Assembly (NCBI RefSeq): GCF_004010195.1
Contig: NC_057753.1
Location: 11,060,392 to 11,106,907, forward strand
DNA length: 46,516 bases
Source: Chiloscyllium plagiosum
Taxonomy: Eukaryota
Direction of reading: 5' to 3'
In this document: piece after piece, positions 9,976 through 38,479 of the stretch
How positions within the stretch are numbered: position 1 is the first letter of the stretch
Layout: every line of letters begins with the position of its first letter
The notes under the pieces: generated by a model
The model's input: the letters and a program-made list of their open reading frames with translations, nothing else
Told to the model about the DNA's origin: nothing
Databases searched by the model: none
Made by a program: the position numbers and the translations under genes

Positions 9976-10081
9976 ACCCAGGAGGTTCAAGTGTGTCAGC
10001 AGCAATCATTTCAAGCATTGTTGGTTTCCTTGGATGCAGAGAAGGCATTTGACCAGGTGGAGTGGCTATATCTTTTTTATA

Positions 10082-10173
10082 GGTAAAAACAAGGAATGCA
10101 GATGCTGGAAACCAGAGTCTAGATTAGAGTGGTGCTGGAAAAGCACAGCTGCTGTGCTTTTCCAGCACCATTC
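10082..10173 (-). mobile_element. Penelope-pLTR-derived mini insertion with a 20-bp perfect hairpin
   Basis: Flanked by the 14-bp direct repeat atatcttttttata (10068-10081 / 10174-10187). Hairpin arms are 10130-10149 / 10151-10170. Confidence 0.85.
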
Positions 10174-11009
10174 ATATCTTTTTTATACCCTGGAGCAGTT
10201 TGATCTGGGTGAAGTGTCTACGAGATGGGTAAAGGTCCTTTACAATGATCCCCTAGCAATGTTTCTCACCAATGGCGTATGGTCTAGTAATTTTACCATT
10301 GGTAGGGTCAGTCGGCAAGGCTGTCCCCTTGAACCATTATTTTTCACATTGGTGATTGACTATTTGTGGAGGCTATTTGTAGGGACCCTAACATAGTTGC
10401 TCCAGAGGTGGGATCAAAGGTACATAAGATCACATCATATGCGGATGATGTTCTTACTTTTCTTTTGTACTCAGCTGTTTCAGTGTCCCATTTGATAGTG
10501 TATGAATTTATTTGGCTCTTGCAGGTTATAAGATTAATTTTTCAAACTTGGAGGCTTTGCCTGTGGGGGGTCTTGGGGAAATACTTGACATTGAGGGTGG
10601 GTTTCCCTTTAAGTGGGCACAGGGAGGTTTTCTTTACTTAGGCCTACCTGTCACACCTGCCTTTGATCAGTTAAGGCTGATGTTGTCCACTTGTTTGACA
10701 AGATTAAACAAGATCTTCAAAGATGGGGGGGGGTCACTTCCGATATCATTAGGTCAAGTGATCCTATCAAAAGGAATGTTCTTCCTTGCTTATTATACTC
10801 TCTGTAGATGCTCCCTTTGCTTATGGAATGGTTGGTTTAATTCTTTTATTTGGTACCATAGACAGCCCTGATTAAGCTAGCAAACCTACAGTAGCCCAGG
10901 GATTTTAATTTGGGGGGGGAGGGGGGAGAGAAAGCCTTCCACGTATCAGAAGATATTGTTTAGGCTCCCTTCTATCTTTTGCAAATGATTGGGCATGTGA
11001 GGACTCAGT

Positions 11010-11212
11010 TCTGGATCAGTGGTGCTGGAAGAGCACAGCAATTCAGGCAGCATCCGAGGACAGGCAAAATCGACGTTTCGGGCAAAAGCCCTTCAGCTTT
11101 TGCCCGAAACGTCGATTTTGCCTGTCCTCGGATGCTGCCTGAATTGCTGTGCTCTTCCAGCACCACTGATCCAGAATCTGGTTTCCAGCATCTGCAGTCA
11201 TTGTTTTTACCT
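11010..11212 (+). mobile_element. Penelope-pLTR-derived fold-back mini insertion (81-bp perfect inverted repeat)
   Basis: Arms 11009-11089 / 11096-11176 with loop ccttca. 15-bp TSD atgtgaggactcagt (10995-11009 / 11213-11227). Contains the hammerhead 3' half gggcttttgcccGAAACGTC. Confidence 0.9.
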
Positions 11213-12661
11213 ATGTGAGGACTCAGTGTTGATATGGTTGGACATTGAGGCCTCTCAGCCAAAATGTCCTCTTATCAACGTGTTGTTTTCAAACAAAATG
11301 AGGACAGTTGTGAAACATTGCCGTAATCCAATAGTTACTAACACTGTCAAAGCATGGAGGGGAAACAAGGCAGGTGAAAGGTAATATGTCTAAAACATTT
11401 TCCTGCTCCCACAATTGGCATGCCGGATTTCCAGCCAGGGATAACGGATCCCAGGTTTAAACTTTGGGTGCTTAGGGGAGTTTCTTGTTTGGGTGATTTG
11501 TTTGAGGGTGAAACGATGATGTCCTTTGATCAAATAATTCGTAAATTTGGGCGATCGAGTAAGGACCACTTCTGTTTCTTTCAGATTAGAGATTTTATTC
11601 GAAAAGAGACTTTGCTTTTAGCTGAGTGTTGTAGATCTGATTGGAATACACTGAGTACTCTTTATCATCTGTTGGGGGAGGTTTTTCAGATGACATCAAA
11701 TGACTACCTGAAGTCTGGGAGAGAGTTCGGAGTTGAGCTTACTTCAGAAACATGGGAGGATATTTGTGAGAATGCGAGGAAGATTTCGATCTGTAATAGG
11801 ACCCAGACTATGCAGTTAAAGACTTTTCATAGGGTTCATCTGGCTCAGATCATCTCGCAAAATTTAAGGAGGGAGCATCTTCAATGTGCCCCCCCCCCCG
11901 CCGTGTAAAATAAGCACAGGGACCCTCGCTCATTCCTTGTGGTCCTATCACAAGCCTTGTATGTATTGGAGTGCTGTGGCACTAGTAAAGGGTCTTGGGG
12001 ACCAAAGTTAAGGTGGACCTGGTCTCTCTTCTCCTGGGGTTGCCGAATTTATCTTCGCTAGATGTGCCTGGGTGAAAGCTTTTAAACATACTTAATTTTT
12101 GTGCGAGGAAGAACATTCTAACGGGCTGCGTGTCTGTGAATCCCCAGAGTCTGTTGGGGTGGCGTAAGTTAATTATGGAACACATTCTTTTGGACTTTCC
12201 TACAACTATGGTGTTCGAAAAATGGAAAACTTTAATAAGATACGGCAGCACTTTTTGAATTACCTGGAAGCTGATTTGTCTCCCATTTTAATTAGGTCCT
12301 TTGTTTAGCCGTGATGTGAACTTGATGCCCTGAGAGGAAGAATTTCGAACAAATGTTGGTGTAATAACTGATGCTCTCGAAAGTTGAGATCTACACTCTT
12401 GTTGTGCCGAGCAGCAATATTTATTGGGCTGTATAGGTTTAATTTGTTTTGTAGAGTAGTGCAGTAGTTGCTTCACTGTTATGGTTATAATGTTATATTT
12501 TTGTTTGGTAATTTTATAATTTTGTAAAGAGAAAGTTTTCCATAAAAATATGTTTTAAAGTCTAATGCTTTGTGCCTGTGACACTGTTCTCAGTCAAGGA
12601 TAGGTTCCCCATCACCACCAATCAATATCTAATTAAGCAAACTGCCAACATCCACAGCAGT

Positions 12662-12764
12662 CATGATTTGCCGGTGTTGGACTGGGGTGTACGAAGTTAA
12701 AAATCACACAACGCCAGGTTATAGTACCTGTTGGACTATAACCTGGTGTTGTGTGATTTTTAAC
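12662..12764 (-). mobile_element. Fold-back mini insertion of a second Penelope pLTR family
   Basis: 30-bp arms 12696-12725 / 12735-12764. TSD aacatcca(c/g)agcagt (12647-12661 / 12762-12776). Same sequence as the pLTR at 27081-27110. Confidence 0.85.
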
Positions 12765-12884
12765 ATCCAGAGCAGTAGAGAAACAGCAGCTGTATTTAAG
12801 AGGGGACTCCGGAGACGTGCCGTTTATTACGACGACACATTAGGAAATAGACACTGATTTTTTTTTTGCAAATCCAGCTAGAAC

Positions 12885-13158
12885 ATTAGATTGGATTACT
12901 TACAGTGTGGAAACAGGCCCTTCGGCCCAACAAGTCTACACCTACCCGCTGAAGCGCAACCCACCCAGACCCATTCCCCTACATTTACCCCTTACCTAAC
13001 ACTACGGGCAATTTAGCCAATTCACCTGACCTGCACATCTTTGGACTGTGGGAGGAAACCGGAGCACCACGGGGAGAATGTGCAAACTCCCGGAATTGAA
13101 CCCGGGTCTCTAGCACTGTGAGGCAGCAGTGCTAACCACTGTGCCACGGTGCCGCCCA
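12885..13158 (-). mobile_element. HE1-type SINE with internal deletions
   Basis: Reverse complement of gggcggcac.gtggcacagtggttagcactgctgcctcacag...gggccgaagggcctgtttccacactgtaagtaatc. Confidence 0.92.
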
Positions 13159-13334
13159 CATGAATTACAATTTATATTTTGGATGAACAGGATGGTTGTG
13201 AACAAGTTGCAAGGGATGATGATTAAAAAGGGTTACAGGAAAGGTCGTAAAGCTTCATGGATCAGACTCAGATTAAAATACCCCCCTGAGCGGCCTCTCT
13301 CACCCACCAAAACAATCTCTTACTTTTGTTTAGA

Positions 13335-13960
13335 CCTTTATCCCGCCCGGATCCACCACCAGGACCGGCTCCTCGGACCCTCCTCCAGCTCCGGGGGGTT
13401 GTTGAGCTCCTGGGCTCCGGAGGCCGCGGGCGCCGGCTCCCTCTCCTCCACCGCCGACATTTTTAATTTGTTTTTCTCGTTCACCCGGTAACCGTCACCT
13501 CCCCCTTCCCGGGCCCCGGGAATTATACACAAATAAACAATAAACCCCACCGGGGACTGTCTCCTTTTCTTCACAACTTTTGCTTGAAAGGTTCCGGCTT
13601 CAATTTGAAATGTATTTTAAATGTATTTTCTGAGGTAAACGGTGCCTGTCTGCCCCCCTCCCTCCGTCAGAAACCGCCCGCTGAGTCGATGAGAAAACCG
13701 CAGCCTCGCGCCGCCATCTTTGTTTTTCTTCTTCTTCTCCTTCTCCTCCTTCAGTGACGCGCGTCATCCGCGCGCTCCCTCCAATCAGAGCGCACCTTAC
13801 TCCACCTGACCAATGGCGGCCGGCTTTGCGGTCCCTGTTTGTTCCGTCCCACCCCCACCCCGCCGAATGTCGCTCTCCGATTAGTCCGCACCGACCGCAC
13901 GCTTTGGGATTGACGGGGAGGTTCATGCGTACGTCACTGTCCCCGCCCCTTTCCCTTCCC
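13335..13960 (-). promoter_or_regulatory. CpG-island promoter and candidate first exon (copy A), pointing leftward
   Basis: High CpG density, YY1 motif CCGCCATCTT (about 13711-13720), CCAAT boxes (13781, 13810), CRE-like tgacgc/acgtca, GC box ccccgcccc (13941). Candidate start AAAATGTCG giving MSAVEEREPAP. Confidence 0.75.
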
Positions 13961-14067
13961 ATTCATTCATTATCAGTTCACTGCAATGGGCTCTGGGGGT
14001 AGGAGGGGGTGACCCATATTGAGGTGGAAGGTGTCCACATTCATTCAACAAAAGTGGGCTTGTTTCC

Positions 14068-14250
14068 TACAGTGGTAGTGTCCCTACCTCTGATCCTGAC
14101 GCCCAGGTTCAAATCCCACTGCTCCAGCAATGTTTAATAACATCCTCAATCATTTTTTTTGGCATAAGTGACACGACACTCAGGTTACAGTCCAACAGAT
14201 TTATTTAAAGCACAAGCTCTTGGATCATAGCCCCTTCATTAGGTGAAATC
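14068..14250. mobile_element. tRNA-like SINE fragment (about 14068-14145, plus) and decayed Penelope pLTR (about 14165-14250, minus)
   Basis: cagtggtagtgtccctacctctg...aggttcaaatccca; minus strand cctaatgaaggggc..ccaagagcttgtgc..aataaatctgttggactg. The paralog is at 31490-31660. Confidence 0.6.
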
Positions 14251-14456
14251 ATGAAAACAGCGCAGGAAACAGCATTCAGGTAAATGATCAGCCAGGGATG
14301 GTGATGAAAGACAGAGCATCACAACGGTCAATTGCCAACTACCATTCTTATTTCTGATCTTATTAATACATGACTGATAAAACATTGGGGAACAAATAGT
14401 CAAGTGCCTCAATTTTGTAAGTCTCCATTTTGTGATAAAGTTTGCCTTACAAAAAC

Positions 14457-15053
14457 AGGATCTGGACCAGATGGGCCAATGGGCTGAGTGGAAATGGAGT
14501 TTAATTCAGATAAATGAGAGGTGCTGCATTTTGGGAAAGCAAATCTTAGCAGGACTTATACACTTAATGGTAAGGTCCACTTAATGGTAAAGTGTTGCTG
14601 AACAAAGAGACCTTGCAGTGCAGGTTCATAGCTCCTTGAAAGTGGAGTCGCAGGTAGATAGGATAGTGGCTGAGGGGTGATCTTATAGAGGTTTACAAAA
14701 TTATGAGGGGCATGGATAGGATAAATAGACAAAGTCTTTTCCCTGGCATTGGGGAGTCCAGAACTAGATGGCATAGGTTTAGGGTGAGAGGGGAAAGATA
14801 TAAAAGAGACTTAAGAGGCAACTTTTTCACGCAGAGGGTGGTAAGTGTATGGAATGAGCTGCCAAAGGATGTGGTGGAGGCTGGTACAATTTCAACATTT
14901 AAGAGGAATTTGGATGGGTATATGAATAGGAAGGGTTTGGAAGGATATGGGCCAGATGCTGGCAGGTGGGACTAGATTGGGACGGGATATCTGGAAGCGT
15001 TGGACCGAAGGGTCTGTTTCCATGCTATATATCGCTATGACTCTATGACTCTA
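14457..15053 (+). mobile_element. CR1 3' fragment with internal deletion
   Basis: MRGMDRINRQSLFP...FFTQRVVSVWNELP and a (ctatgact)n tail. Confidence 0.95.
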
Positions 15054-15263
15054 AAATGGCTAAGTACATTGACCATGAGAATGAATTGAGGAATGCACAA
15101 ATCTTGGCAATAACATTGTGTCTGTCCTTTCCCAGACAGAGTTTCCACAACCTAATGAATAGAATGCTCACAGTATCTTAGATTTTATCCAAGTTGACAC
15201 AAATGGCACCAGACGGAGAAAACATTAATAACCTTGTTTTAATCTATGTGAACAACACTAAAT

Positions 15264-15302
15264 GGATTCCTGAAGAAGGGCTCATGCCCGAAACGTCGAT
15301 CC
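15264..15302 (+). ncRNA. Minimal type I hammerhead ribozyme motif (Penelope pLTR type) in an 88-bp insertion 15265-15352
   Basis: ggattc CTGAAGA a gggc-tcat-gccc GAAA cg TC gatcc has an intact CUGANGA/GAAA core, a 4-bp stem II, palindromic ACGU in place of stem III and a short stem I. TSD taaatg (15259-15264 / 15353-15358); empty site in the paralog near 31155-31170. Confidence 0.75.
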
Positions 15303-15615
15303 TCCTTGGATGCTGCCTGACCTGCTGCGCTTTTCCAGCAACATATTTTCAGTAAATGTATTAATTATCTAGTTCATATTATGGAAACTTAATTACAGCT
15401 ATCAATATTATATTGTGTCAACTAGAACATACAAAATTGTTACACTCATAAGGAGTATAAAATATGCTGCGCTTTTGTTAAAAATCAGAGATTTTCACTA
15501 GTACATACAGGGATATCTTGATTAATACTCGATTATAGACTATTGATTTCTCGATGGCTTAATTACAATTAATTTGTAACTTACGTGTGGTCTGAGAATT
15601 TCTAAGTCAACATTT

Positions 15616-15629
15616 TAGTGTCATGAATC
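15616..15629 (+). promoter_or_regulatory. Degenerate primer-binding site, tRNA-His
   Basis: TAGTGTCATGAATC lies 3 nt after the LTR end and matches TGGTGCCGTGACTC at 10/14. The paralog (30884-30897, minus) TGGTGCTGTGGCTC matches 12/14. Confidence 0.65.
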
Positions 15630-16504
15630 TTTTTTCAACATAGGGACCGTTTCTATAGGCTGATTAAGTGACCAAAAGAGTTTTGATTGGATGCAACAGT
15701 GGTGGGGGGGCCCCTTAGGTATTTTTCCTTAAGACCACTCCTTGTGTCCCAACAGATGATCTGCCCCTTACCTAGTACCTCGAAGGGATTGAACAAACAA
15801 CCTGGACCAGGATTATAAGGTAAGAAAGTTTTTGTTTTTTATGAGGTTGCTCTAGGTTGCTGCAGAGTGACCTTAGCTATTCCGTATTGTTCCTCAGATA
15901 AAACAGTTAGACTGGTGACCACAGTCAGAGAAGTGCTCCCCACTACCTGAGAAATTGGGCTTAGAGACCTGACTCCTTTGGATATGGCCAGTTAAATTTC
16001 TGAGGTTATAGAAATAGGAAGGCAGTTTCTGTAAATTTCTCACTCTGTATTATTGATATGGCCGGTTGAAATTTTTTATTGTTGAGCAAGTAATGATACA
16101 GAAACAATGGGACAGTCCCTTTATGTAGTTGGAAAGGAGACTCCCTTTCAGACTGTGTGAGAGAGAGAGAATACCTGATCAGGAAAATGATTTATAGGGG
16201 TTAGAGGTCCTCAGGGAAATTGGAAATTTTGGTAAGTTCTCTGTGAATTGGGCAACTTGTTAAATTGTAATGTACAAATTAAAGGACGTCCAGTTTGAAT
16301 TATTGAATGATTGTGATAGTGTGTGTGAGAGAAAGGCAACTGTCAATAGAATGGGGAACTGTTTCCAAAACTGTTACTTTGTCAACAAACAGATGAAATG
16401 GACACAAAAAACTGAGAAGCCATTTCCACTTGATGGCACATTTAATTGTGATTGTAGAAAACAATTGGCAGAAATTTTGAAAACTTTGAATATTCAAAGG
16501 AAAC

Positions 16505-16530
16505 ACAGAGAGAGATAGAGAGAGAGAGAG

Positions 16531-16573
<43 letters not shown>
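16505..16573. repeat. (GA)n-(CA)n compound microsatellite
   Basis: Directly visible. Confidence 0.95.
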
Positions 16574-16576
<3 letters not shown>

Positions 16577-22410: not shown

Positions 22411-22462
22411 CCCAGAACTGGACTGATAGTCCAGTCAATAACGGCACACAGCCGTAGCTCCT

Positions 22463-23404
22463 TCAATCCCTCTGCAATGGCAAGTGAACTCGCTGGTGCC
22501 TCTGCAGGTGGGAGGAGCGGGTGAAACCTTTCCCACACTCAGAGCAGATGAATGGCCTCTCCCCGGTGTGAATCTGCTGGTGTTTCTGCAGGCTGGAATA
22601 GTCCGTGAATCCCTTCCCGCACACAGAACAGGAGACCAGTCTCTCCTCGGTGTGGATCTGCCCGTGCGCCAGCAGGGCAGTTGAATGGGTGAAACCTCTC
22701 CCGCAGACGGAGCAGATGAAGGGCCTCTCCCCAGTGTGAACACGCCGGTGTCTCTGCAGGGCAGAGGAGTTAGTGAATCCCTTCCCACACTCAGAGCAGG
22801 TGAATGGCCTCTCCCCGGTATGAATGTGCCGGTGTCTCCGCAGGTCAGAGGAATTAGTAAATCCCTTCCCGCACTTGGTGCAGGTGAATGGCCTCTCCCC
22901 GGTGTGGACCCGTTGGTGTCTCCGCAGGGCAGATGAACTATTGAACATCTTCCCGCACATGGAGCAGGAAAACGGCCTCTCTTCAGTGTGAATGCGCTGG
23001 TGCATCAGCAGGGTAGACAACCGACTGAACGCCTTCCCGCACATGGAGCAGGAAAACGGCCTCTCCTCAGTGTGGATGCGCTGGTGCATCAGCAGGGTAG
23101 ATGACTGGGTGAACACCTTCCCACACACGGAGCAGGAAAATGGCCTCTCTTCAGTGTGGATGCGCCAGTGCGTTCGCAGGGTAGATGACTGACTGAACTC
23201 CTTCCCACACACAGAGCAGGTGAACGGTCTCTCCCTTGTGTGAACCCGCTGGTGGGTCACCAGGGTGGATAAATGAATGAATGCCTTCTCGCACACAGAG
23301 CAGGTGAATGGTCTCTCCCCCGTGTGACTGCGCCGATGGCGTTCAAGCAAGGATGGGAATTTGAATTCCTTCCCACAGTCCCCACATTTCCACGGTTTCT
23401 CCAT
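22463..23404 (-). CDS. Intact C2H2 zinc-finger protein, 11 tandem fingers, 313 aa, no effector domain in this exon
   Basis: Uninterrupted ORF MEKPWKCGDCGK... with 11 CxxC-x12-HxxxH units and TGERP/TEERP linkers. An in-frame TGA lies shortly upstream of the ATG at 23404. Confidence 0.93.
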   Translation of the reverse strand: MEKPWKCGDCGKEFKFPSLLERHRRSHTGERPFTCSVCEKAFIHLSTLVTHQRVHTRERPFTCSVCGKEFSQSSTLRTHWRIHTEERPFSCSVCGKVFTQSSTLLMHQRIHTEERPFSCSMCGKAFSRLSTLLMHQRIHTEERPFSCSMCGKMFNSSSALRRHQRVHTGERPFTCTKCGKGFTNSSDLRRHRHIHTGERPFTCSECGKGFTNSSALQRHRRVHTGERPFICSVCGRGFTHSTALLAHGQIHTEERLVSCSVCGKGFTDYSSLQKHQQIHTGERPFICSECGKGFTRSSHLQRHQRVHLPLQRD

Positions 23405-23484
23405 CACACGGGAATTCTCGTTTCTCTCCAGCTTTGAAACTCAGTTGAAGGACCACTCACACACGGAACGTGTTCAGTCTCTCG

Positions 23485-24290
23485 CCACTGCCATTCATCA
23501 AGCTTGCTCTGCAATTCAAGAAGATCATGTGTGTCCTGTTGTGTCCTTAATTCCATTTCCTGCCTGCCTCCATAACCTTTCATTCCCTTGTCACTCAAAA
23601 TTCTTTTCAATTCAGCCTTGAATACATTCAAAGAGCCAGTCTCTACTACTCCCTGTGGGGGAGCATTGCAAAAACTAACAAGAGAGAATAATTTATTCAT
23701 CTCTGCCTAAAATGAGATACCACGTTTTTGTAATCTGGGTCTTCAAATTCTAGATTCTCTGACAAGGAAGCATTTTATCTAAATCTACCCTTACAAGCTC
23801 AGTTCTGGTCACCCAATTATCAGAAGGGTATTATCAAACTAGAGAGAGTTCACAGGAAACTTACAAGTTGTTGCCTGGTGTGGAAGATTTGAAGAAATGT
23901 TGGATCGGCTGGGCCTTTTTTCACTGGAGTGTAAGAGGTTGTGAGAAGGGAAGTTCATAAAGTAATGAGAGGTATAAATATAGACGATTTCACAAATGGG
24001 GGCATATTTATAATGTGAGGAGAGAGATCTGAAAAAAAGACAAGGACCTTTTTTTTTCATAGAGTGTGGGTCACATGTAGAATGAACTTGCTGAAGAAGT
24101 GGTAGATGCTGGTACAATTACAACATTTAAAAGATTTTTGGATAGGTACATGAATAGGAAAGGTTTGGAGGGATATGGGCCAGGAGCAGGCAGGCAGGAC
24201 AGGTGCGATTACGTTCGGCATGGACCGATTGGACTGAACGGTCTGTTTCTGTGCTGCGTAATTCTGTGACTATAACTCTATGACTGTACT
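23485..24290. mobile_element. Old CR1-type 3' fragments in the putative ZNF intron (about 23485-23790 minus; 23795-24290 plus)
   Basis: PQGVVETGSLNVFKAEL (minus); gaagtggtagatgctggtacaattacaacatttaaaag and the tail gtctgtttctgtgctg (plus). Confidence 0.8.
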
Positions 24291-24475
24291 AGAAAAGCAC
24301 AGCAGTCAGGCAGCATCCGAGGAGCAGGAAATTTGAAGTTTCAGGCAAAAGCCCTTCATCCGGAACTTTCGCTCGAAACGTCAATTTTCCTGCTCCTCGG
24401 ATGCTGCCTGACCTGCTGTACTTTTCCAGCACCACTCTAATCTCGACTCTGATCTCCAGCAGTGCTTACTTTCGC
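24291..24475 (+). mobile_element. Penelope-pLTR-derived fold-back mini insertion (imperfect arms)
   Basis: 15-bp TSD ctctatgactgtact (24276-24290 / 24476-24490). Arms about 24292-24352 / 24366-24426. The minus strand has a mutated core cGGATGAagggcttttgcctGAAActtc. Confidence 0.88.
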
Positions 24476-24640
24476 CTCTATGACTGTACTGCCAAGCAGC
24501 TAATTATAATTTGCCGTGGCGTTAAATGCTAACCATCTCCTGGGGAAGCCCACCCCTTTAACTGCGAGTATTAACCAAACAAATAAATCTGCCGGGTGAA
24601 GGAAGCAAAGCCTGTCGATGTCTTCAACAGTGAGACCAAG

Positions 24641-24760
24641 GTAAAAACAAGGACTGCAGATGCTGGAAACCAGAGTCTAGATTAGAGTGGTGCTGGAAAA
24701 GCACAGCAGTTCAGGCAGCATCCGAGGAGCAGGAGAATTGACGTTTCGGGCAAAAGCCCA
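24641..24760 (-). mobile_element. Penelope-pLTR-derived 120-bp insertion without fold-back
   Basis: 16-bp TSD caacagtgagaccaag (24625-24640 / 24761-24776). Starts at hammerhead stem II gggcttttgcccGAAACGTC. Confidence 0.88.
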
Positions 24761-25300: not shown

Positions 25301-25719
25301 GTGAAGTAATATCTACTCCTTTCCATTTCTCATTCAGGAAGAGGGAGAAAGGAAGGAGGGAGAAGGGAGAAGGGAGAGAGGAGTACTGTTTACTTGTTGC
25401 AACTGGGGTAAATCCAGGGAGGGAGCAGACTCTGCAAAGGTGCTCAGATGCACTCTGACCCTCTTGGAGATATTGTCATTTTCCCCCTCAGTTTGACACG
25501 TTTATTAGAATACAATTTACACCTTGGAAAAAGATTGCCTTTTTCCTCATATTCATAATTTCATTCCATGGTTTCTCATGGAATGGAGCAGCATTTAAAC
25601 CATTAGCACATTGATATAAAATGTACATATATGTTGCTTCTTGTGGTGTACATCTGATATTATTTGCTGTTGTAAAAGCTTCATGGCTACTATTTTTCAT
25701 CTCCTAATCACTATTACGA

Positions 25720-26263
25720 TGGGGATTCCCTTCCCCAAAGGTCTCTCCCCAGATGCATTAACACTGGGGAGAGACCTTTCTCCTGCTGTCAGTGTAGGCA
25801 GACATTCATTAGTGCATCCCACCTCATGACACACCAGAGCAATCACACCCGCGACAGGCAGTTCATCTGCGGGAAAGCATTCATTGATTCTTCCAGCCTG
25901 CTGAAACACCAGCAGGTCCATACTGGATAGGGTCCATGTGTAGGCAGGGGTCAGTCAGATGGGCGATCTGTGGAAGCACCAATGGGTGTACGTGGTCAAG
26001 AGGCCATTCACCTGCCCCGAGGGAGGGAAGGGCTTCACTCATGTGACCAACTTGCAGAAGCAGGAGCAGTTCTGCATGTGGGAGAGGACCTTCAGATGCC
26101 CCGCGTGTGGGAAGGGGTTGACTTGCTCGGCTAAGCTGCTGACCCACCAGCGGGTTCACACCGGGCACAGCCCGCTCACCTGCTCTCAGTGCGAGAAGGG
26201 CTTCATTTGCTCCTCCCACCCGTGGAGTACCAACAAGTTCACATGCCATCACAAGGGGATTGA
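25720..26263 (+). pseudogene. C2H2 ZNF pseudogene
   Basis: TGERPFSCCQCRQTF..HLMTHQSNH, RPFTCPEGGKGF, FRCPACGKGL..LLTHQRVHTG, LTCSQCEKGF; stops, frameshifts and lost Cys/His residues. Confidence 0.9.
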
Positions 26264-27822
26264 AGGAGCGATGGCAAGTGACAATTTCAACTGCACTATC
26301 AACCCAGTTCTGGGGACTCCTGGGTTCGAATCCCGCTGTGGCAGATGGCGAAATTGGAATTCGGTCAGAAATCTGGAGTTCAGAATCAAATGATGAAATC
26401 ATTTTCAGGGGAAAACAAATCCCCATCTGATTCACTCATGTCCTTTTTAGGGAAGGAAACTGCCATTGCGGGAAAGGATTCACTCAGTCATCCCAGCTAC
26501 ATCCTTTACCCAGTTTGGCCTGCACATGACTCCAGACCCACAGCCGTGTAGTTGACTCTTGATATTGTCCCCCCTCCCCCGACACATGAGCAGCGAGCAA
26601 GTCACTTGGATACAGTGTGTAAGTTGAAATTGCTGAGTGAGGCAATACTTGCTACAGGTTAACGCTGTACCAAGGATCCAGTTACAAAGGGACAACTCAG
26701 CTGACGAATAGTAAAGAAAGTGGTGGCGGTGGGGGTAATGTTTGTGCTTTGACCTTGTGTTGTTTTAAAAAACTACTTTTTGTACGCCTTTTTGCTGGAA
26801 GACCTGAAGCTGTAACAAAGTTGGATCACAGTAAAGGTTACCTGAACTTACTGCCGGGCTCAGACTCTCATTGAAAGCTGTGAGACACAAAAGGTTTCTG
26901 TTTTAAAACAGCTCATTTCTTACAGCCTTGTCATGTATCAGAAAGAGCAGTGAATGAGTAGCTGTTATCATTAGAAACTTAAAATTTTCATCTTTGCAGA
27001 TACTGCATCGTTTCATCAGCATTGTAAAGTTTACTGGCATCAGCGGGAGATGTGGGCTGTATTATCTAGAAATAAAGTTTAAAAATCACACAACACCAGG
27101 TTATAGTCCAACAAGTTTATTTGGAAGAACTAGTTTTGGGAGGGGTGCACCTTCATCAGGTAGCTGTGGGGAGATCATAAGACACAAATTTATCGCAAAT
27201 GATTACAGCATCATGCAACTGAAATGATATATTGAACAAACCTAGATTTCTGTTAAGTCTTTCATCTTTTAGAATGGGTTGCAGGTTTCGGTTCATTAAT
27301 ATGTAAATCCCAGAACTTTTTCTAAGTCACATTCTTGAGATAACTTAATGTTTTATTTAAAAACGTGACATCTCAGTTCAGACTATGATGTGATGTTAGA
27401 GTCTGTCTGTATCCCAATCTTGACTGGTTCTATTTCCAAAATATTTTGCGCCTTCTGAGTAAAATATAATGGATCTGCAAATATAATTCGGCAAATGCAA
27501 ATTCACCCCATAGACTTTGATGTGTGTATGCATGCATGAGAGAGAGTGTGTGTGAGTGTGTTCACGTGATATGCACGGGTGAGTGCGCATGAGAGAATGT
27601 GTGTTTGCGTATGTGCATGCTTGGTAAAGTATGTGTGTGATGGAATGTAAGCCTGTGTCTGAGAGACAGCGTGCATATGAGAGGGTCTGTTTGAGTGTGT
27701 GAGTATGTAAGAATGTGTGTGTCTGAGAGGGAGTGTATGGTGAAGTAGGGTCACCTGCAGTGTGACATGAATCCAAGGTCCCGGTTGAGGCCATCCTCAT
27801 GGGTTCTGAACTTGGCTATCAG
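26246..27822 (+). repeat. Copy 3 of the ZNF-3'-end module, including a Penelope 3' end (about 27078-27822, minus)
   Basis: Colinear with 243-1765. The minus strand encodes LIAKFRTHEDGLNRDLGFMSHCR* and has pLTR cctgatgaaggtgcacccctcccaaaactag. Confidence 0.9.
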
Positions 27823-28327
27823 TCACTTGTCCATGACGCCCAGATATCCTAACCTAATCCATTCCCATTTGCCAGTACTTGGCTCATATCCCTCTGAACC
27901 CTTCCTATTCACATACCCATCCAAATGCCTTTTAAATGTCATAATTGTTCCAGCCTCCACCACTTCCTCTGGCAGCTCATTCCATACACGCACCACCCTC
28001 TGCATGAAAAAGTCGCTCCTAAGGTCTCTTTTATATCTTTCTCCTCTCATTCTGACCACTACCCTCTGTTTCTGGACTCATCCACACCAGGGAAAATACC
28101 TTATCTGTTTATCCTATCCATACCCCTCATGATTTTGTGAACCTCTGTAAGGTCACCCCTCAGCCTCCAATGGTCCAGGGAAAACAGCTCCAGCCTATTC
28201 AGCCTCTCCTTTTAGCTCAAATCCTCCAACCCTGGCAACATCCTTGTGAATCTTTCCTGAAGCTTTTCAAGTATCACAACATCCTTCCGACAGGAAGTAG
28301 ATCAGAATTGCATGCAATATTCCAATA
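27823..28327 (-). mobile_element. CR1 3' fragment at the junction of two duplicated blocks
   Basis: RGERYKRDLRSDFFMQRVVRVWNELP. Confidence 0.92.
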
Positions 28328-30467: not shown

Positions 30468-31845
30468 ACAATACGGAGTGAGATATTTACCAAGGCTGTC
30501 CTCCTCTTTCTGTAACTTCATACGTTCACCCGGCCATATCCAAAGGAGTCAGCTCTCTAAGCCAAATCTGTTACGTAATGGGGAACACTTCCCTGACCAT
30601 GGTCACCAGTCCCAACTCTTTTATCTCAGGAACATTGCAGAACAGCCAAGGACACCCCACCGCAACCTAGAGCAACCTCATAAAAAAAACCCTTATAATC
30701 CTGCTATAGGTGGTTCATTTGATCCCTTCAAGGTACCAGTCTCACGAGGCCAGGGCAGATCATCTGTTGGGACACAAGGAGTGGTCTTAAGGTAAAATAC
30801 CTATGAGGCCTCCACTGTGTTGCATCGATCCAAACTCTTGGTCATTTACTCAGCCCAGAGAAACAGTCCTGATGTTGGGAAAAGAGCCACAGCACCAAAA
30901 TGTTGACTCAGAAATTCTTGGATCACACGTAAAGTACAAATTAAATGCACTTCATTGTAATTAATCTGGTGAGAGATCAATAATTTATAATCCAGAGTAT
31001 CAATCAAGATATCCATGAATGTACTAACGATAAATCTCTGATTTTTAGCAAAAAGCCAGCATACTTTATGCCCTTATGTTCGTAACAACTTTGTATGTTC
31101 CAGTTCCCACAATATAGTTTCAATTAAGTTTGCATAATTTGAACTACATAATTAATACATTTAGTGTTGTTCACATAGATTAAAACAAAGCTATTAATGT
31201 TTTCTCCATCTGGTGCCATTTGTATCAATGCAGATAAAACCTAAGATATCAGCATTCTATTCATGAGGTTATGGAAACTCTGTCTGGGAAAGGACAGACA
31301 CAAAGTTATGTCAAGATTCATGCCTTCTTCAATTCATTCTCATGGTCAATGTACATTATCGGTCATGTATTAAGAAGATCAGAAATAGGAATGGGAGTAT
31401 GTAATTGACTGTTGAGATGCTCTGTCTTTCATCACCATCCATGGCTGAACATTCATCTGAATTCTCTTCCCTGCACGGTTTTTTTCATGACTTCACTTAA
31501 TGAAGGGGCTCCACTTCAAGAGCTTGTGATTTCAAATAAACCTGTTGGACTATAACCTGGTGTCATGTGACTTATGACTAAAAAAATGGATTTGATGTTA
31601 TTACACATCGCTGGAGCAGTGGGCCTCAGGGCTCAGAGGTAGGGACAGTACCACTGAAGCACAAAAAAACTCTGTAGTAAATAGGAGTTCCCATTCACTC
31701 TTTTGAATGAATGGGAACTCCTTCGTCCTCGACAAGGGACACTACCGTTGTACCCCCAGCCCATTGGGTCCTCTCCTGTTGAATGAGTGAATAGGAATGG
31801 AAAGGGGTGGAGACACTGACATGTGTACGAACCTCTCCACTAATC

Positions 31846-32160: not shown

Positions 32161-32164
32161 AATC

Positions 32165-33062
32165 GATCCCAAAGCCTACGGTTGGTGTGGACTAGTTGGA
32201 GAGCAACGTTCCATGGCGGGGGGGGGGTTGGGTTGGGTTTGGGGGGAATGAGTTCCCTAAGGCCCACAAAGCCGGCTGCCATTAGGTGGAGTAAGGTGCG
32301 CTCTGATTGGAGGGATCACAGATGATGCACGTCACAGAAGGAGGAGACAAAAAATAAGAGAAACAAAGATGGCGGTGTGAGACTGTGATTTTCTAATCGA
32401 CTCAGTGGGCGGTTTCTGACGGAGGGAGGGAGGGAGAGAGAGAGGGGACAGGCAGGCATCGTTTATCTCAGAAAATACCTTTAAAATACATTTCAAACTA
32501 AAGTCAGAATTTTTGAAACTGAAGTTGTGAAGAAAACAGTCCGCGGTGGGGTTTATTGTTTATTTGTGTATAATTCCCGGGGCCCAGGAAGGGGGAGGTG
32601 ACGGTTACCGGGTGACAAGAAAACAAATTTAAAATGCAGCGGGAGGTGGAGGAGCGGTGGCGGTGGGGGATAAAGTCCGGCGGAGCACGGTTTCTGACGG
32701 AGGGAGGGGGGCAGACAGGCACCGTTTATCTCAGAAAATACCTTTAAAATACATTTCAAACTAAAGTCAGAATGTTTGAAACTGAAGTTGTGAAGAAAAC
32801 AGTCCCCAGTGGGGTTTCTTGTTTATTTTTGTACAATTTCTGGGGCCCGGGAAGGTGGAGGTGACGGTTACCTGGTGAACGAGAAAACAAATTTAAAATG
32901 CAGCGGGAGGTGGAGGAGCGGCGGCGGGGGGTAAAGTCCGGCGGAGCACAAGCTGGGGGAGAGGCTGCACTCGGTGCTGTGCTGGACCGTGAGCCTGGAG
33001 CTACCCGCGGCTTCACTCTACCAGGTACCGGGCTGGGCCGAGGGGGAATCCGGGGGATAAGG
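32165..33062 (+). promoter_or_regulatory. Promoter and candidate first exon (copy B) with a tandem duplication (32410-32687 / 32688-32948)
   Basis: ATTGG, AAGATGGCGG (YY1), AAAATGCAGCGG start-like context twice, donor-like CCAG|GTACCG near 33024. Confidence 0.65.
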
Positions 33063-33263
33063 CGGATCGCCATTAGCCTGGAGCCACAATCACTCCCATT
33101 CCTAAAACAAACATAATTTCTATTAAAATCACCATCTTATTCTCCATACACCTTCTATAATCCCATCCTTATCCATACAGGAGGGCAGGCTGCACTATCT
33201 GACTGAACTGATACGGTATTCAGTTGTGCATAATGAATAGATATCTCTTTTTAAAAATAGCAA

Positions 33264-34128
33264 GTTTTCAGATGACACCAAAATTGGAGGTGTAGTGGAC
33301 AGCGAAGAGGGTTACCTCAGATTACAACAGGATCTTGATCAGATGGGCCAATGGGCTGAGAAGTGACAGATGGAGTTTAATTCAGATAAATGCGAGGTGC
33401 TGTATTTTGGGAAAGCAAATCTTAGCTGGACTTATACACTTAATGGTAAGGTCCTAGGGAGTGTTGCTGAGCAAAGAGACCTTGGAGTGCAGGTTTATAG
33501 CTCCTTGACAGTGGAGTCGCAGGTAGATAGGATAGTGAAGAAGGCGTTTGGTATGCTTTCCTGTATTGAATACAGGAGTTGGGAGGTCATGTTGCGGCTG
33601 TACAGGACATTGGTTAGGTCACTGTTGGAATATTGCATGCAATCCTCGTCTCCTTCCTATCGGAAAGATGTTGTGAAATTTGAAACGGTTCAGAAAAGAT
33701 TTGCAAGGAGGTTGCCAGGGTTGGAGGATTTGAGCTATTGGGAGAGGCTGAACAGGCTGGTAGAGGTTTACAAAATTATGAGGGGCATGGATAGAGTAAA
33801 TAGGCAAAGACTCCCTGGGATCAGGGAGTCCAGAACTAGAGGGCATAGGTTTAGGGTGAGAGGGGAAAGATATAAAAGAGAGCTGTGGGGCAACTTTTTC
33901 ACACAGAGGGTGGTACATGTATGGAATGAGCTGCCAGAGGATATGATGGAGGCTGGTACAATTGCAACATTTAAGAGGCATTTGGATGGGTATATGAATA
34001 GGAAGAGTTTGGAGGGATATGGGCCGGGTGCTGGCAGGTGGGACTAGATTGGGTTGGGATATCTGGTCGGGATGGACAGGTTGGACCAAAGGGTCTGTTT
34101 CCGTGCTGTACATCTCTTTGACTCTATA
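33264..34128 (+). mobile_element. 5'-truncated CR1 LINE
   Basis: ORF 33370..34047 is the RT C-terminus with internal deletions; typical tail. Confidence 0.95.
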
Positions 34129-34399
34129 CTCAATGTTATTTACTACATATTAAACATAAAATATTGCAATACTTCAACATGCACTGTAGAAGGTCACAGG
34201 CAATATTGCATGCCAGAGCCTGTGTAAACCTCTATGTGGTTATGTTTTATAAATGTGATTTGAGGTAATCACACGTAAAATGTGGTCTCATGCAATCATT
34301 GGGTAGGGTTTTTTTTTAATGTGTGTCTGTGTATATAGGTATGTTATTTGGATCATGGGGTTTTGTCTAGCCCAGTGATGGTTTGGCTATCGAGAAAGG

Positions 34400-35068
34400 G
34401 GAGTCAGGTACTAATTAATCTTTCTGCCAAATCCAGCACCTTGACCAAGAGCTTCACTTCTTTGCGATTGTCATCTTCCAAAGAATCAACCTACCCAGCA
34501 TTTATGCAGACCTATGCATATGTATGATTGTACCTGAATGCTGGAAATCTCGGTCATATTTCCGGTTCTCCATGCATGGCAAATTGGACGTGTTTGATTT
34601 TGTTTTCTTGCAAGTGTTGTGAAACCTAGTCTGATCATGTAAAAGTCGACCCTAGTTCTTCATAGATAACAGATCAATGTTTGAGGGTCAGATTGCTGGC
34701 CGTCATCTCCCGCTCCAGCTTTGCAGTCTGCCAGTTGTTCAGCTCTACAACTGTCTTCCAGTTCGCTGGCTGTTAGTTCCACTCTGGTTCTTCAGAATTA
34801 CCATAATTGTTTTCTTATTTCTTTAGTTGGACTTCTGCTCATGACAGGGTATGAATTTTGACAGGCATGAATTTCAGCCCCTCAAAAGTAGTATCCATGT
34901 AATAGTCGACCCCCTAAATTTAACTTTAAAGTAGCTTTAAAAAATTGATTATTACTCATGTATATATGGGATAAATTAATTGTTAATTGCTTCTTTGCTT
35001 TACGTTATTTTGGCTTACGAAAGGTTTCATAGGAACGCTTTACTTACGGATAGTGGGGGAAACCTGTA
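34400..35068. mobile_element. Tigger/pogo-like DNA transposon (MITE) remnants
   Basis: Repeated agtcgaccc motifs, an end resembling the CCGTATATACTCG TIR (attactcatgtatatatgg, about 34969) and a second TIR-like end ggatagtgggggaaacctgTA (35068). Left ends not identified. Confidence 0.45.
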
Positions 35069-35105
35069 TCAATACAATACAGCAAAGTCACAGGCTCTTC
35101 TTACT

Positions 35106-35417
35106 TGATTAGATTAGATTACTTACAGTGTGGAAACAGGCCCTTCAGCCCAACAAGTCCACACCGCCCCGCCGAAGCACAACCCACCCATACCCCTACA
35201 TCTACCCCTTATCTAACACTACAGGCAATTTAGCATGGCCAATTCACCTGACCTGCACATCTTTGGACTGTGGGAGGAAACCGGAGCACCCGGAGGAAAC
35301 CCACACAGACACGGGGAGAATGTGCAAACTCCACACAGTCGCCTGAGGCGGGAATTGAACCCGGGTCTCTGGCGCTGTGAGGCAGCAGTGCTAACCACTG
35401 TGCCACCGTGCCGCCCA
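35106..35417 (-). mobile_element. Full-length young HE1-type SINE
   Basis: Reverse complement is nearly identical to 17147-17457. Confidence 0.95.
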
Positions 35418-35419
35418 TT

Positions 35420-36205
35420 TGGTTTAGGTACCCCCACCTCCGAGCCTGTGCCGATTCTTAATCCTTACTTAGACCTGCTATGTATTGCCCATGCATGGTT
35501 TCTATCCCTCTGTTCGCCTCCCATTTGTGTATCAATCAAGATACGCCTTAAACATTGCTAAGGTGCCTACTTCCACTACCTCCACTGGCAGTGCATACCA
35601 GGTATCCACCTTCCCTTCCACTTCTCCCCTAGACTGACTCCTCTCACCTTGAACCTGTGTCCTTTTGTAGATGACCATTCCATCCTGGGGAAATGAAAAG
35701 GCCTCGGACGATCATAGAATCCCAACAGTGTGGAAAAGACCATTCAGCATAACAAGTGCGCACAAGGATGTATGGAAGGCGCTAGCTATGAAGAGAGGTT
35801 GAGTAGGTTAGGTTTGTTTTCATTAGAAAAAAGATTGAGGGGGGATCCTGACTGAGGTTACCAAATCATGAAGGGTTTAGACAGGGTGGATAGAGACAAG
35901 CTTTTTCCCAAGGTGAAGGATTCAATAACGAGAGGTCATGCTTTCAAGGTGAGAGGTGGAAAGTTTAAGGGGATACACGCAGCAAGTACTTCACACAGAG
36001 GGTAGTGGGCATTTGGAACGCGTTGCCAGTAGAGGTGGTAGAGGCAGGCACGGTAGATTCATTTAAGATGCGTCTGGACAGATGCATGAGTCGGTGGGAG
36101 CAGAGGGATACAGATGTTTAGGAATTGGGCGACAGGTTTAGACAGTACATTTGGATCGGCTCAGGCTTGGAGGGCCGAAGGGCCTGTTAAATTTCTTTAT
36201 TCTTA
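35420..36205. mobile_element. CR1 3' fragments (about 35420-35700 minus; 35764-36205 plus) with a SINE tail between them
   Basis: ttcacacagagggtagtgggcatttggaacgcgttgcc and the tail gagggccgaagggcctgtt. Confidence 0.85.
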
Positions 36206-36475
36206 CTTCAGGGGTTTTAGTTTTGATTGCTACATGCAATAAAGTGTAAATCATTGTTTCAGCAATTGAGTCTGTGTGTGGTTTCTGAGACAGTAGCCAA
36301 ATTAAGCAGATTCACCCACAGCCAGAGTGAGAGGCTGGGATTAATATTGTCTCCATTATATTCAGCAAGATGTCATGTCAATATTGTTATTAAGCAACGG
36401 CTGCACTCTATCCCCACCGAGATCTCAAAGTGAAACACCCAAAGAGGAGCGGGTTGCTCTATAATCTGTAAAATT

Positions 36476-36975
36476 NNNNNNNNNNNNNNNNNNNNNNNNN
36501 NNNNNNNNNNNNNNNNNNNNNNNNNNNNNNNNNNNNNNNNNNNNNNNNNNNNNNNNNNNNNNNNNNNNNNNNNNNNNNNNNNNNNNNNNNNNNNNNNNNN
36601 NNNNNNNNNNNNNNNNNNNNNNNNNNNNNNNNNNNNNNNNNNNNNNNNNNNNNNNNNNNNNNNNNNNNNNNNNNNNNNNNNNNNNNNNNNNNNNNNNNNN
36701 NNNNNNNNNNNNNNNNNNNNNNNNNNNNNNNNNNNNNNNNNNNNNNNNNNNNNNNNNNNNNNNNNNNNNNNNNNNNNNNNNNNNNNNNNNNNNNNNNNNN
36801 NNNNNNNNNNNNNNNNNNNNNNNNNNNNNNNNNNNNNNNNNNNNNNNNNNNNNNNNNNNNNNNNNNNNNNNNNNNNNNNNNNNNNNNNNNNNNNNNNNNN
36901 NNNNNNNNNNNNNNNNNNNNNNNNNNNNNNNNNNNNNNNNNNNNNNNNNNNNNNNNNNNNNNNNNNNNNNNNNNN
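36476..36975. other. Assembly gap (500 N)
   Basis: Run of N. Confidence 1.
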
Positions 36976-37640
36976 GTGGACCCACACACCAGAGACCATT
37001 TACCTCCCCAGATCGTGGCAAGGGATTCACTCAGTCATCTGGTCTGCTGACACACCGGCAAATTCACACGCCAGAGAGGCCATTCACCTGCTGTAAGTGT
37101 GGGAAAGGATTCACTGATTCATCCAACCTCTGCACTCATCAGCAAGTTCCCAGTGACGAGAGACCATTCAGATGCTCCCACTGTGGGTCTCGCTTCAAAT
37201 GTTTATTTGAACTCACCAGCCACCAGCAGACTCACACTAGGGAGAGACCATTCACCTGACCTTAGTGTGGGAAGCAGTTCACCCAGTTATCCAGCCCTCT
37301 GAGACACCAAGGATCACACCTAGGCAAACAGATTTTACTTGCTCTGAGAGTGTTATCCAGGCTGCTGAACCTGCAGGGAGTTCCTACTGACAAGCGATTA
37401 TTTAAATGCTCAGACTGTGGAAAGTGTCAAAGATTCCAGGGCATTGATGTCCCATCAATGTGTTCACACTTATGAGAGACTGTTAAGGTGCTCTTACTGC
37501 AGGACTGTAGTCACACGATCATTTCAATACATTAAACATCAGCAAATACACATTGGGGAGAGGCCATTTAACTAAATAGGTCTCAGGGAAGGGATTCATT
37601 CTGTTATCCAACATGCTGAACCGTCAGTGATTTCATCAGT
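36976..37640 (+). pseudogene. C2H2 ZNF pseudogene (5' part lies in the gap)
   Basis: [58 protein letters not shown]..., with frameshifts and stops. Confidence 0.88.
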
Positions 37641-37710
37641 AATGGCAGTGTTTGGATTTTGCTGTTAATCTCATACAAGGTGGAGCCTTGTTCACGACGC
37701 CTGCGTTGAT

Positions 37711-37828
37711 GGGCTAATGCCCGAAACGTCGATTCTTCTGTTCCCTAGATGCTGCCTGACCTGCTGCGCTTCTCCAGCAACACATTTCCATCTCTGATCT
37801 CCAGCATCTGCAGACCTCATTTTCTCTT
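37711..37828 (+). mobile_element. Penelope-pLTR-derived 118-bp insertion
   Basis: gggctaatgcccGAAACGTCgattcttctgttccctagatgctgcctgacctgctgcg...ccagcatctgcagacctc; possible TSD cgtt(g/a)atg. Confidence 0.85.
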
Positions 37829-38479
37829 CGTTAATGAACTCCAGCCCAGTTATAGTCGTTAATCACTGAAATCAGGCACCTTTGGTATTTCAGCAAACAG
37901 TCGTATGTTGCGGATATTTTCTCTTACACTCATCGGGAGAATTGTAAGAATATAAACTTAACTACAGAACCAATGTTTACACTGTATGAGAAATGAGCAA
38001 GAGTACTCTAGTGGAGGCATTGCGATGAAGGATGCATAAGCTAACAATGATTGACATTTAACTGCCAGGGGTTGAAATGGGTGGAGTGCATATACATGCC
38101 CTCTCTGTCCATGATGAACAGAATTAGTGATGTATATGTGGGCACAAATTCAGGTTGACCTATTTGATCGTGCTAATGTTTTAACGCATCTGCATACATA
38201 CAGACTGCCCTAGACACAACTAAAGCAGTCTCCCTTTTATGTTCTATTTCATTTTTGACCAGTTCTATATCACATAAAGGCGCCAAGTGGTTGCATGAAT
38301 TGCTGCAATCAGTTGTCAACAATTTTTCCATTTCCACAGGGAAAATTTCTTCCCCTTTTGCAAAGCCCATATGTGATGTCAGTATATCCAGTAATGTAAT
38401 GATCATGTGCTGAGTTGACATTGTGAGGCTATTCACCAATGAGCCATCGGCATCTGCACTGCAGCACCAGATTGAGGTG

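What the first reader, a model, noticed from the sequence alone, without database searches (positions are those of the whole stretch)
10068..37836. Family of tiny hammerhead-associated, often fold-back insertions with long TSDs
Seen: six related 88-203 bp insertions (10082, 11010, 15265, 24291, 24641, 37711) share GAAACGTC..ggatgctgcctga.ctgctg.gcttttccagca (10082 has only the distal part). A seventh (12662) comes from a second family. Five have 14-16 bp TSDs and four are fold-back hairpins. Established: Penelope-like elements carry minimal type I hammerheads in their pseudo-LTRs and often have inverted 5' segments. Inference: these behave as a non-coding, PLE-mobilised short retroelement class (retrozyme/SINE-like) that is dense here (7 in about 28 kb), or as systematically abortive PLE insertions.
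Basis: partly seen in the sequence, partly recalled or inferred. Interest (0 to 1): 0.8.

Follow-up and report, generated by a model that had tools for sequence, protein, structure and literature searches.

The report
Penelope retrotransposon end-stubs in a shark
These seven short insertions are real but are likely dead-end stubs of Penelope-type jumping genes, a known pattern, rather than a self-spreading ribozyme family; their ends suggest that both cut DNA strands copied the front of the element's RNA, a predicted step that is testable and still unexplained in print.

Summary
Observation confirmed: seven insertions, five with 14-16 bp TSDs (0 of 300 random placements reach 14), four fold-backs; empty sites verify 11010 (15-bp TSD) and 15265 (6 bp). 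The retrozyme/SINE reading is not supported: 1 of 7 insertions keeps an intact hammerhead core, none is a head-to-tail tandem, none starts at the cleavage site, all four hairpin junctions differ, and polyA reads show read-through on both strands. The 'abortive PLE' reading holds. Family 2 (12662) is attached in this window to the C-terminus of an RT + GIY-YIG ORF; the ORF link of family 1 is inferred only. Inverted end, 37-nt one-sided tail and TSD are published PLE signatures. Less ordinary: 5' ends crowd at the ribozyme's 5' edge, and in 4 of 4 short hairpins each arm has sequence the other lacks, so neither is a snap-back copy. Best model: both nicked strands prime on the RNA's 5' leader at two start sites and run off near the transcript start. 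The scan noted this same pattern and model many times before (243 findings, at least 33 genomes); that is not independent support.

The parts
10082..10173 (-). Family-1 fold-back stub, 92 bp: tailed arm 10082-10148 (-), tail-less arm 10149-10173 (+); no ribozyme part; sits in a decayed RT-coding LINE frame
   Evidence: TSD 10068-10081/10174-10187
11010..11212 (+). Family-1 fold-back stub, 203 bp: tail-less arm 11010-11095 (-), tailed arm 11096-11212 (+), arms 80/80 identical, 37-nt tail; ribozyme core truncated
   Evidence: TSD 10995-11009/11213-11227; empty site in run X18 record 10
12662..12761 (-). Family-2 fold-back stub, 100 bp: tailed arm 12662-12725 (-), tail-less arm 12726-12761 (+), 37-nt tail; starts downstream of the ribozyme
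   Evidence: TSD 12647-12661/12762-12776
15265..15352 (+). Family-1 single-arm, tail-less stub, 88 bp, the only copy with an intact minimal hammerhead pattern (15270-15297); first letter G where the family majority has C
   Evidence: 6-bp TSD 15259-15264/15353-15358, empty paralog near 31154-31166
24291..24475 (+). Family-1 fold-back stub, 185 bp: tail-less arm 24291-24365 (-), tailed arm 24366-24475 (+); core altered
   Evidence: TSD 24276-24290/24476-24490
24641..24760 (-). Family-1 single-arm tailed stub, 120 bp, starting at stem II of the ribozyme
   Evidence: TSD 24625-24640/24761-24776; a paralogous contig 13% diverged stops aligning at 24640 (X8 record 17)
37711..37828 (+). Family-1 single-arm tailed stub of a more diverged subfamily (93/117 identical to 24641), ends approximate, no clear TSD
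27073..27825 (-). Longer family-2 copy: C-terminal peptide of an RT + GIY-YIG ORF (27754-27825), about 600 nt of 3' UTR, TATA-like position 27194, ribozyme core at 27159, tail-less 3' end; links family 2 to an autonomous PLE
1070..1790 (-). Paralogous duplicate of the longer family-2 copy; exact TATAAA at 1192, 38 nt upstream of the (mutated) core at 1154
7245..7720 (-). Third paralogous duplicate of the longer family-2 copy (5' part missing)
14163..14245 (-). Old short family-2 copy starting about 2-3 nt upstream of the ribozyme core; duplicated at 31495-31577 (+)
1..245 (-). 5'-truncated PLE RT fragment (3-182) running off the window start, with a 63-nt head-to-head inverted arm (183-245); a different PLE family from family 2

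Best explanation
The seven insertions are real short retro-insertions with target-site duplications, and they are likely one-off, dead-end products of autonomous Penelope-like elements (shown for family 2, inferred for family 1), probably made when the element's enzyme copies only the 5' leader of its RNA from one or both cut DNA strands. Shown: TSDs, empty sites, two 3' end positions about 37 nt apart, head-to-head arms each holding sequence the other lacks, 5' ends crowded at the ribozyme's 5' edge, attachment of family 2 to an RT + GIY-YIG ORF end. From the literature: a PLE protein nicks and extends both target strands and starts reverse transcription inside the RNA at two sites flanking the tail, on uncleaved RNA (PMC11167929). 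Inferred: the staggered nicks (6-16 bp) each prime a cDNA, one at the proximal site (tail-less arm, with a few bases of microhomology to the target) and one at the distal site (tailed arm); when this happens on the pLTR copy at the front of the transcript the enzyme runs out of template 90-130 nt later, just upstream of the ribozyme; the two cDNA ends are joined head to head (fold-back) or one is lost (single arm). The ribozyme is a passenger here, not the agent of spread.
For: TSDs far above chance and two verified empty sites. Family 2's repeat is the 3' end of a copy whose upstream peptide is 81-85% identical over 26 aa to the last residues of proteins bearing GIY-YIG (P0165) and RT (P0167). 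A PLE RT fragment with a head-to-head arm lies at 1-245 (92% to a Chiloscyllium protein; relatives P0008, P0010 carry RT + GIY-YIG). One-sided 37-nt tail in 11010 and 12662; opposite-strand joints pairing 24637-39 with 24674-75 in other copies. In 4 of 4 short fold-backs the tail-less arm reaches 3-14 nt further 5' than the tailed arm, so neither arm can be a full snap-back copy of the other. 5' ends of 7 of 7 GAAAC-bearing arms lie at -9 to -25, the cleavage site would be +8. Genome-wide, upstream loose ends (1302, 1325, 340 contigs; 744 raw reads) share only about 13 letters across the four runs, agreement 0.49-0.52. An exact TATAAA lies 38 nt upstream of the core in 1 of 3 paralogous family-2 long copies, one mismatch in the other two.
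Against: No ORF link for family 1 was obtained. n is small: 4 of 4 arises with probability 1/16 under equal odds, and arm boundaries were set by hand. The RT-fragment hairpin at 1-245 has the opposite geometry (long arm reaches 13 nt further 5', inverted arm ends inside the ORF), which fits snap-back copying. 10082 and 12662 stop well short of the proposed RNA start. Loose-end agreement of 0.5 could also come from several subfamilies with different upstream UTRs, and contig counts over-represent junctions. The TATA and extra-G signs are one event each and were looked for after a lead. A stall at the folded or protein-bound ribozyme explains the clustering without any transcript start. PMC11167929 found no difference in start site between the two strands and did not address inverted arms in the parts I read.
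Confidence: 0.7

Rival explanations
1. Ordinary severe 5' truncation of 3'-end-primed PLE cDNA, with the enzyme stalling at the ribozyme structure; hairpins by snap-back/self-priming or antisense-template priming as proposed for Adineta Penelopes. Same identity (PLE stubs), different mechanism.
For: PLE copies are known to be mostly 5'-truncated with an adjacent inverted copy (PMC8557442, PMC3846280, passages). The hairpin at 1-245 fits snap-back. Four tailed arms end at -9 to -13, inside or at stem II. A longer family-2 copy reaches the ORF end.
Against: In 4 of 4 short hairpins each arm has sequence absent from the other; a 4-bp stem is a weak block; upstream sharing ends about 13 letters beyond stem II in all four runs.
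Confidence: 0.2
2. A distinct non-autonomous short retroelement (SINE-like or retrozyme-like) derived from the family-1 pLTR, transcribed on its own and mobilised by the PLE enzyme in trans.
For: Very high abundance and a fairly fixed 5' edge; family 1 not linked to an ORF here; non-LTR retrozymes derive from pLTRs in vertebrates (10.64898/2026.07.22.740005, parts 1-3); some DNA contigs show go-back joints, i.e. partial tandems exist elsewhere, and one RNA go-back joint had 5 reads from 2 starts.
Against: 1 of 7 intact cores, no tandem in the window, 0 of 7 arms starting at the cleavage site, four different junctions; no tRNA, 5S or 7SL head at these coordinates; RNA reads on both strands (1194 vs 788 at the peak bin), 99 in 100 run on into unlike sequence, no start/end peak, 187 per million records. 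The promoter candidate lies upstream of, and is absent from, the short copies.
Confidence: 0.08
3. Assembly artefacts or post-insertion palindromes (chimeric reads, later gene conversion).
For: Arms of 11010 are 100% identical; conversion between arms could homogenise them.
Against: Each hairpin is bounded by one TSD; empty site at 11010 lacks both arms; the other arms differ at 1-7 positions.
Confidence: 0.02

Closest known systems
Endonuclease-positive Penelope-like element insertions with inverted pLTR, one-sided 30-40 bp tail and TSD (Adineta Pen2a_Av, PMC3846280: passages and Discussion read; PMC8557442: passages incl. Fig. 2 legend read)
   Same: Head-to-head inverted end, tail on one arm only, TSD around the whole unit, heavy 5' truncation
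   Different: Here the whole insertion is only 88-203 bp and has no ORF; TSDs are 14-16 bp against 8-10 bp in the Adineta examples; 5' ends are clustered
PAc, Poseidon of Anolis carolinensis, in vitro (PMC11167929: parts 1-2 of 4 read)
   Same: Two internal RT start sites flanking the tail; both strands cut and extended; uncleaved RNA is the template
   Different: The parts read do not describe run-off stubs or explain inverted arms; PAc prefers AT-rich targets, only 2 of 6 TSDs here are plainly AT-rich
Solo minimal hammerheads of metazoan PLEs (PMC4209133: parts 1-2 of 4 read; one supplementary file could not be searched)
   Same: Minimal type I pattern, mostly single motifs ascribed to truncated PLEs, pairs on opposite strands 100-700 bp apart
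   Different: No shark term was found in the two searchable supplements; most copies here have lost the core
Animal non-LTR retrozymes (PMC7229834: passages; 10.64898/2026.07.22.740005: parts 1-3 of 5; its supplements closed)
   Same: pLTR-related sequence, type I hammerhead, TSDs longer than 4 bp
   Different: Those are head-to-tail tandems of 150-450 bp with a ribozyme in every unit and circular RNAs; these are single or head-to-head, mostly coreless
Twin priming of LINE-1 (recalled, not read here)
   Same: Second target strand primes on the RNA through microhomology, giving an inverted segment
   Different: L1 arms are largely non-overlapping; here both arms cover the same sequence and form a palindrome

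Membership tests
EN+ Penelope-like element (3' end / pLTR stub) | Repeat adjoins an ORF with RT and GIY-YIG endonuclease (family 2) | tested here: met
   ORF C-terminus at 27754-27825, continuous to the repeat at 27073-27165
EN+ Penelope-like element (3' end / pLTR stub) | Repeat adjoins an ORF with RT and GIY-YIG endonuclease (family 1) | tested here: inconclusive
   No genome held; scans gave chance hits only; protein search empty; a second PLE family is present at 1-245 but its 3' end is outside the window
EN+ Penelope-like element (3' end / pLTR stub) | Minimal type I hammerhead pattern in the terminal repeat | tested here: met
   Pattern intact at 15270-15297, core letters upstream in most family-1 contigs, core at 27159 and 7327 for family 2; no Rfam hit; cleavage not assayed
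EN+ Penelope-like element (3' end / pLTR stub) | Optional 30-40 bp tail on one end | tested here: met
   37 nt in 11010 and in 12662
EN+ Penelope-like element (3' end / pLTR stub) | Inverted 5'-truncated copy head to head, one TSD around the unit | tested here: met
   4 of 7 insertions
EN+ Penelope-like element (3' end / pLTR stub) | Placement in a named clade (Neptune, Poseidon) | not tested
   No tree with reference clade members was built
Animal non-LTR retrozyme | Head-to-tail tandem units, each with a complete hammerhead | tested here: not met
   0 of 7 insertions tandem, 1 of 7 with an intact core
Animal non-LTR retrozyme | Unit ends set by the cleavage site | tested here: not met
   0 of 7 arms start at +8; all start at -9 to -25. 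A minor loose-end group at 24738 cannot be separated from mismatch clipping
Animal non-LTR retrozyme | Discrete linear and circular monomer RNAs | tested here: inconclusive
   One polyA single-cell run, about 2 in 100 of it read: no start/end peak; such a library cannot show short or circular RNA
Animal non-LTR retrozyme | Self-cleavage in vitro | not testable with these tools
   needs an assay
SINE | Head derived from tRNA, 5S or 7SL with internal promoter | tested here: not met
   No such Rfam match at these coordinates at E up to 1; promoter boxes not scanned separately
SINE | A fixed unit copied as such to many loci | tested here: inconclusive
   Four hairpins, four junctions; 3' ends at two sites, 5' ends within 16 nt for 7 arms; too few copies, no tree

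The most novel reading that the evidence does not exclude
Shark Penelope elements mostly fail in one specific way: two enzymes, one on each nicked target strand, start at the two tail-flanking sites on a single RNA's 5' leader; the leading one (tail-less arm) runs off the capped RNA start just upstream of the hammerhead and the trailing one (tailed arm) stops about 10-14 nt behind it. The stubs would be strong-stop-like cDNAs that map the element's transcript start and explain the inverted pLTR, the one-sided tail and the need for tandem copies.
Probability: 0.4. Interest if true: 0.55.

Novelty: new member of a known kind. Interest (0 to 1): 0.3.

Why it matters
As objects the stubs are ordinary PLE debris and should not be catalogued as a new ribozyme retroelement class; counting them as hammerhead genes would inflate ribozyme censuses, since most lack the core. 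Their value is as a natural record of a step that the papers read call unresolved (formation of tandem/inverted PLE ends): very many independent insertions with TSDs allow start sites, stop sites and arm asymmetry to be tabulated in one genome.

Tried and rejected
No whole genome was held, so copy number, TSD spectrum and trees could not be computed. Pattern scans: 27 metagenome loci, 0 viral, 62 genome loci; none matched the element beyond the pattern itself or encoded a PLE protein; the search for related loci gave none of 69 stretches. A profile of 29 PLE C-termini from the family of P0002 scored the family-2 peptide at 4.3 bits, below shuffled maxima of 4.6-10.1: not significant; the link came only from the direct search. 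Search for proteins joining the family-1 repeat to an ORF: 0 of 231 candidates (weak evidence). Rfam miRNA-precursor hits over the hairpins are far below gathering scores and reflect the palindromes; rejected. No RNA holder was listed on record. Summed contig depth was not used as copy number. Contigs X5 record 17 and X8 record 25 stop at 10994 with 110 and 130 unplaced letters, suggesting empty alleles of 11010 within organism A, but the far side was not shown. Full-text search for element motifs gave only unrelated primer matches among 20 listed of 44 papers. Searches (listings only) showed no paper describing these shark stubs or twin priming in PLEs; subscription papers and Repbase/Dfam were not searchable, so absence from print is not established.
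Full report
Setting. The window is repeat-rich vertebrate DNA with C2H2 zinc-finger genes in segmentally duplicated blocks. A translated fragment at 3-191 is 92% identical to a Chiloscyllium punctatum protein, so a bamboo-shark-like genome is inferred. Labels such as CR1 or L1-like for neighbouring repeats are recalled, not tested, apart from a weak RT hit at 9941-10393 (E 0.009).

Observation. Five TSDs of 14, 15, 15 (one mismatch), 15 and 16 bp stand against a background maximum of 11 in 300 random placements. Two empty sites confirm true insertion: a 2364-nt contig of run X18 (organism C, about 5% diverged) joins 10994 to 11213, skipping 218 = 203 + 15 letters, and the in-window paralog near 31154-31166 has the 15265 target once, giving a 6-bp TSD. 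The LINE frame around 10082 reads on from the left flank to the right flank when each is translated separately. 37711 has no clear TSD. Four copies are hairpins with arm identities 80/80, 21/22, 54/61 and 26/27.

What they are attached to. Family 2 (the 12662 hairpin) has five more copies in the window, representing two older events duplicated with their flanks. One event extends about 750 nt upstream, through a minimal hammerhead core and about 600 nt of UTR, to a peptide at 27754-27825 that is 81-85% identical over 26 aligned residues to the very C-terminus of shark proteins with GIY-YIG (P0165, Pfam above cut-off) and RT (P0167) domains (7 hits of 8 candidates). So the 12662 element is the extreme 3' end of an autonomous PLE. 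A different PLE family (30-35% protein identity to P0167) is represented by the RT fragment at 1-245, whose long relatives carry RT + GIY-YIG and whose 5' end is itself a 63-nt head-to-head hairpin. It may be the partner of family 1, but its 3' end lies outside the window and no search linked family 1 to an ORF. That link is inference from shared anatomy.

Retrozyme or SINE? Published animal retrozymes are head-to-tail tandems with a ribozyme in every unit (PMC7229834, passages; 10.64898/2026.07.22.740005, parts 1-3). Here 0 of 7 are tandems, 1 of 7 keeps CUGANGA, and the 7 GAAAC-bearing arms start 9-25 nt upstream of GAAAC, none at the predicted cut at +8, so the templates were uncleaved, as found in vitro for PAc (PMC11167929, parts 1-2). 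The four hairpin junctions all differ, and other copies show further junction positions. In one polyA single-cell run (about 2 in 100 read), 2,419 of 12,955,460 records matched the 24641 copy, on both strands (1194 vs 788 at the peak bin), 99 in 100 running on into unlike sequence, with no start or end peak: read-through of host transcripts. That library cannot show short or circular RNA. In the other direction, one search lists several go-back joints in DNA contigs and one in RNA (5 reads, 2 starts), so partial tandems exist somewhere.

What is not random. Tailed arms end 5' at -9, -10, -12, -13; tail-less arms at -18, -23, -25 (boundaries set by hand, 37711 uncertain); the old short family-2 copy begins 2-3 nt before its core. 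Across four runs the sequence upstream of stem II is shared for only about 13 letters, then differs, with agreement 0.49-0.52, also in 744 raw reads. Contig counts favour junctions and several subfamilies could blur the consensus, so this is supportive, not decisive. In 4 of 4 short hairpins the tailed arm has the 3' extra and the tail-less arm a 3-14 nt 5' extra; each arm therefore needed the RNA or a longer template. The joints of the tail-less arms with the target show partial matches of a few bases to the sequence the element has next (not tested against chance). Following a lead from an earlier scan note, I found an exact TATAAA 38 nt upstream of the core in 1 of 3 paralogous family-2 copies (one mismatch in the other two; chance about 0.004 per 10-nt slot) and a G at the first position of 15265 where the majority has C; each is a single event.

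Mechanism. Shown: insertion with staggered cuts, two 3' end sites 37 nt apart, mutual arm extras, clustered 5' ends. From print: both-strand cutting and extension and two internal start sites (PMC11167929); inverted end, tail and TSD as general PLE features whose origin is called undefined (PMC8557442, passages), with self-priming on an antisense template proposed for Adineta (PMC3846280, Discussion). Inferred: both strands prime on the leader copy of the pLTR and run off near the transcript start; ends are joined head to head or one cDNA is lost. Against: the hairpin at 1-245 has the opposite geometry; 10082 and 12662 stop early; identical arms in 11010 fit one RNA, one source locus or later conversion equally; stalling at the ribozyme is not excluded.

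Novelty. The class of object is known. I found no paper on these shark stubs or on twin priming in PLEs in searches (listings; five papers read in part as stated), but Repbase, Dfam, subscription papers, the bioRxiv supplements and one supplementary file of PMC4209133 were not seen and may hold them. The scan's own notes hold this pattern 243 times in at least 33 genomes, several with the same double-priming and run-off model. My notebook entry had the run-off idea before those look-ups; the arm-asymmetry table was run. Those notes are unchecked and are not counted as support. Verdict: real, ordinary in kind, modest mechanistic interest.

Noticed in passing
window 1-245: PLE RT fragment whose 5' end folds back for 63 nt inside the ORF; paralogous flanks at 6451, 26246 and 22480 begin at window 243, i.e. 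look empty. Geometry is opposite to the short hairpins.
   Followed up: partly
window 11010-11212: Absent in organism C; two organism-A contigs stop at 10994 with 110 and 130 unplaced letters, so the insertion may be polymorphic and the family recently active.
   Followed up: partly
window 9941-12300: A decayed RT-coding LINE (L1-like by recall) received two family-1 insertions within 1 kb.
   Followed up: partly
window 24276-24290: The 24291 insertion sits at the tandem-repeat tail of another LINE (CR1-like by recall); its TSD includes tail repeat letters.
   Followed up: no
window 22466-23440 (-), 25700-26430, 36980-37310, 6320-6520: C2H2 zinc-finger arrays, one with a 325-aa open frame, in segmentally duplicated blocks that also carried old family-2 copies.
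   Followed up: no
joint 24738 to 24699: RNA go-back joint of 40 nt starting next to the predicted cleavage site, 5 reads from 2 starts; could be a genomic tandem or a small circle.
   Followed up: no
proteins P0014, P0166, P0168, P0169: PLE sequence appears in a protein annotated as Proteus mirabilis (likely contamination) and as C-termini of predicted shark host-gene isoforms (FAM204A, XRCC5, a pyrin-domain protein).
   Followed up: no
window 42879-43818, 44117-44580, 3383-4211: Near-perfect direct repeats (98-100%) with spacings 640, 232 and 529, possibly recent duplications or assembly artefacts.
   Followed up: no
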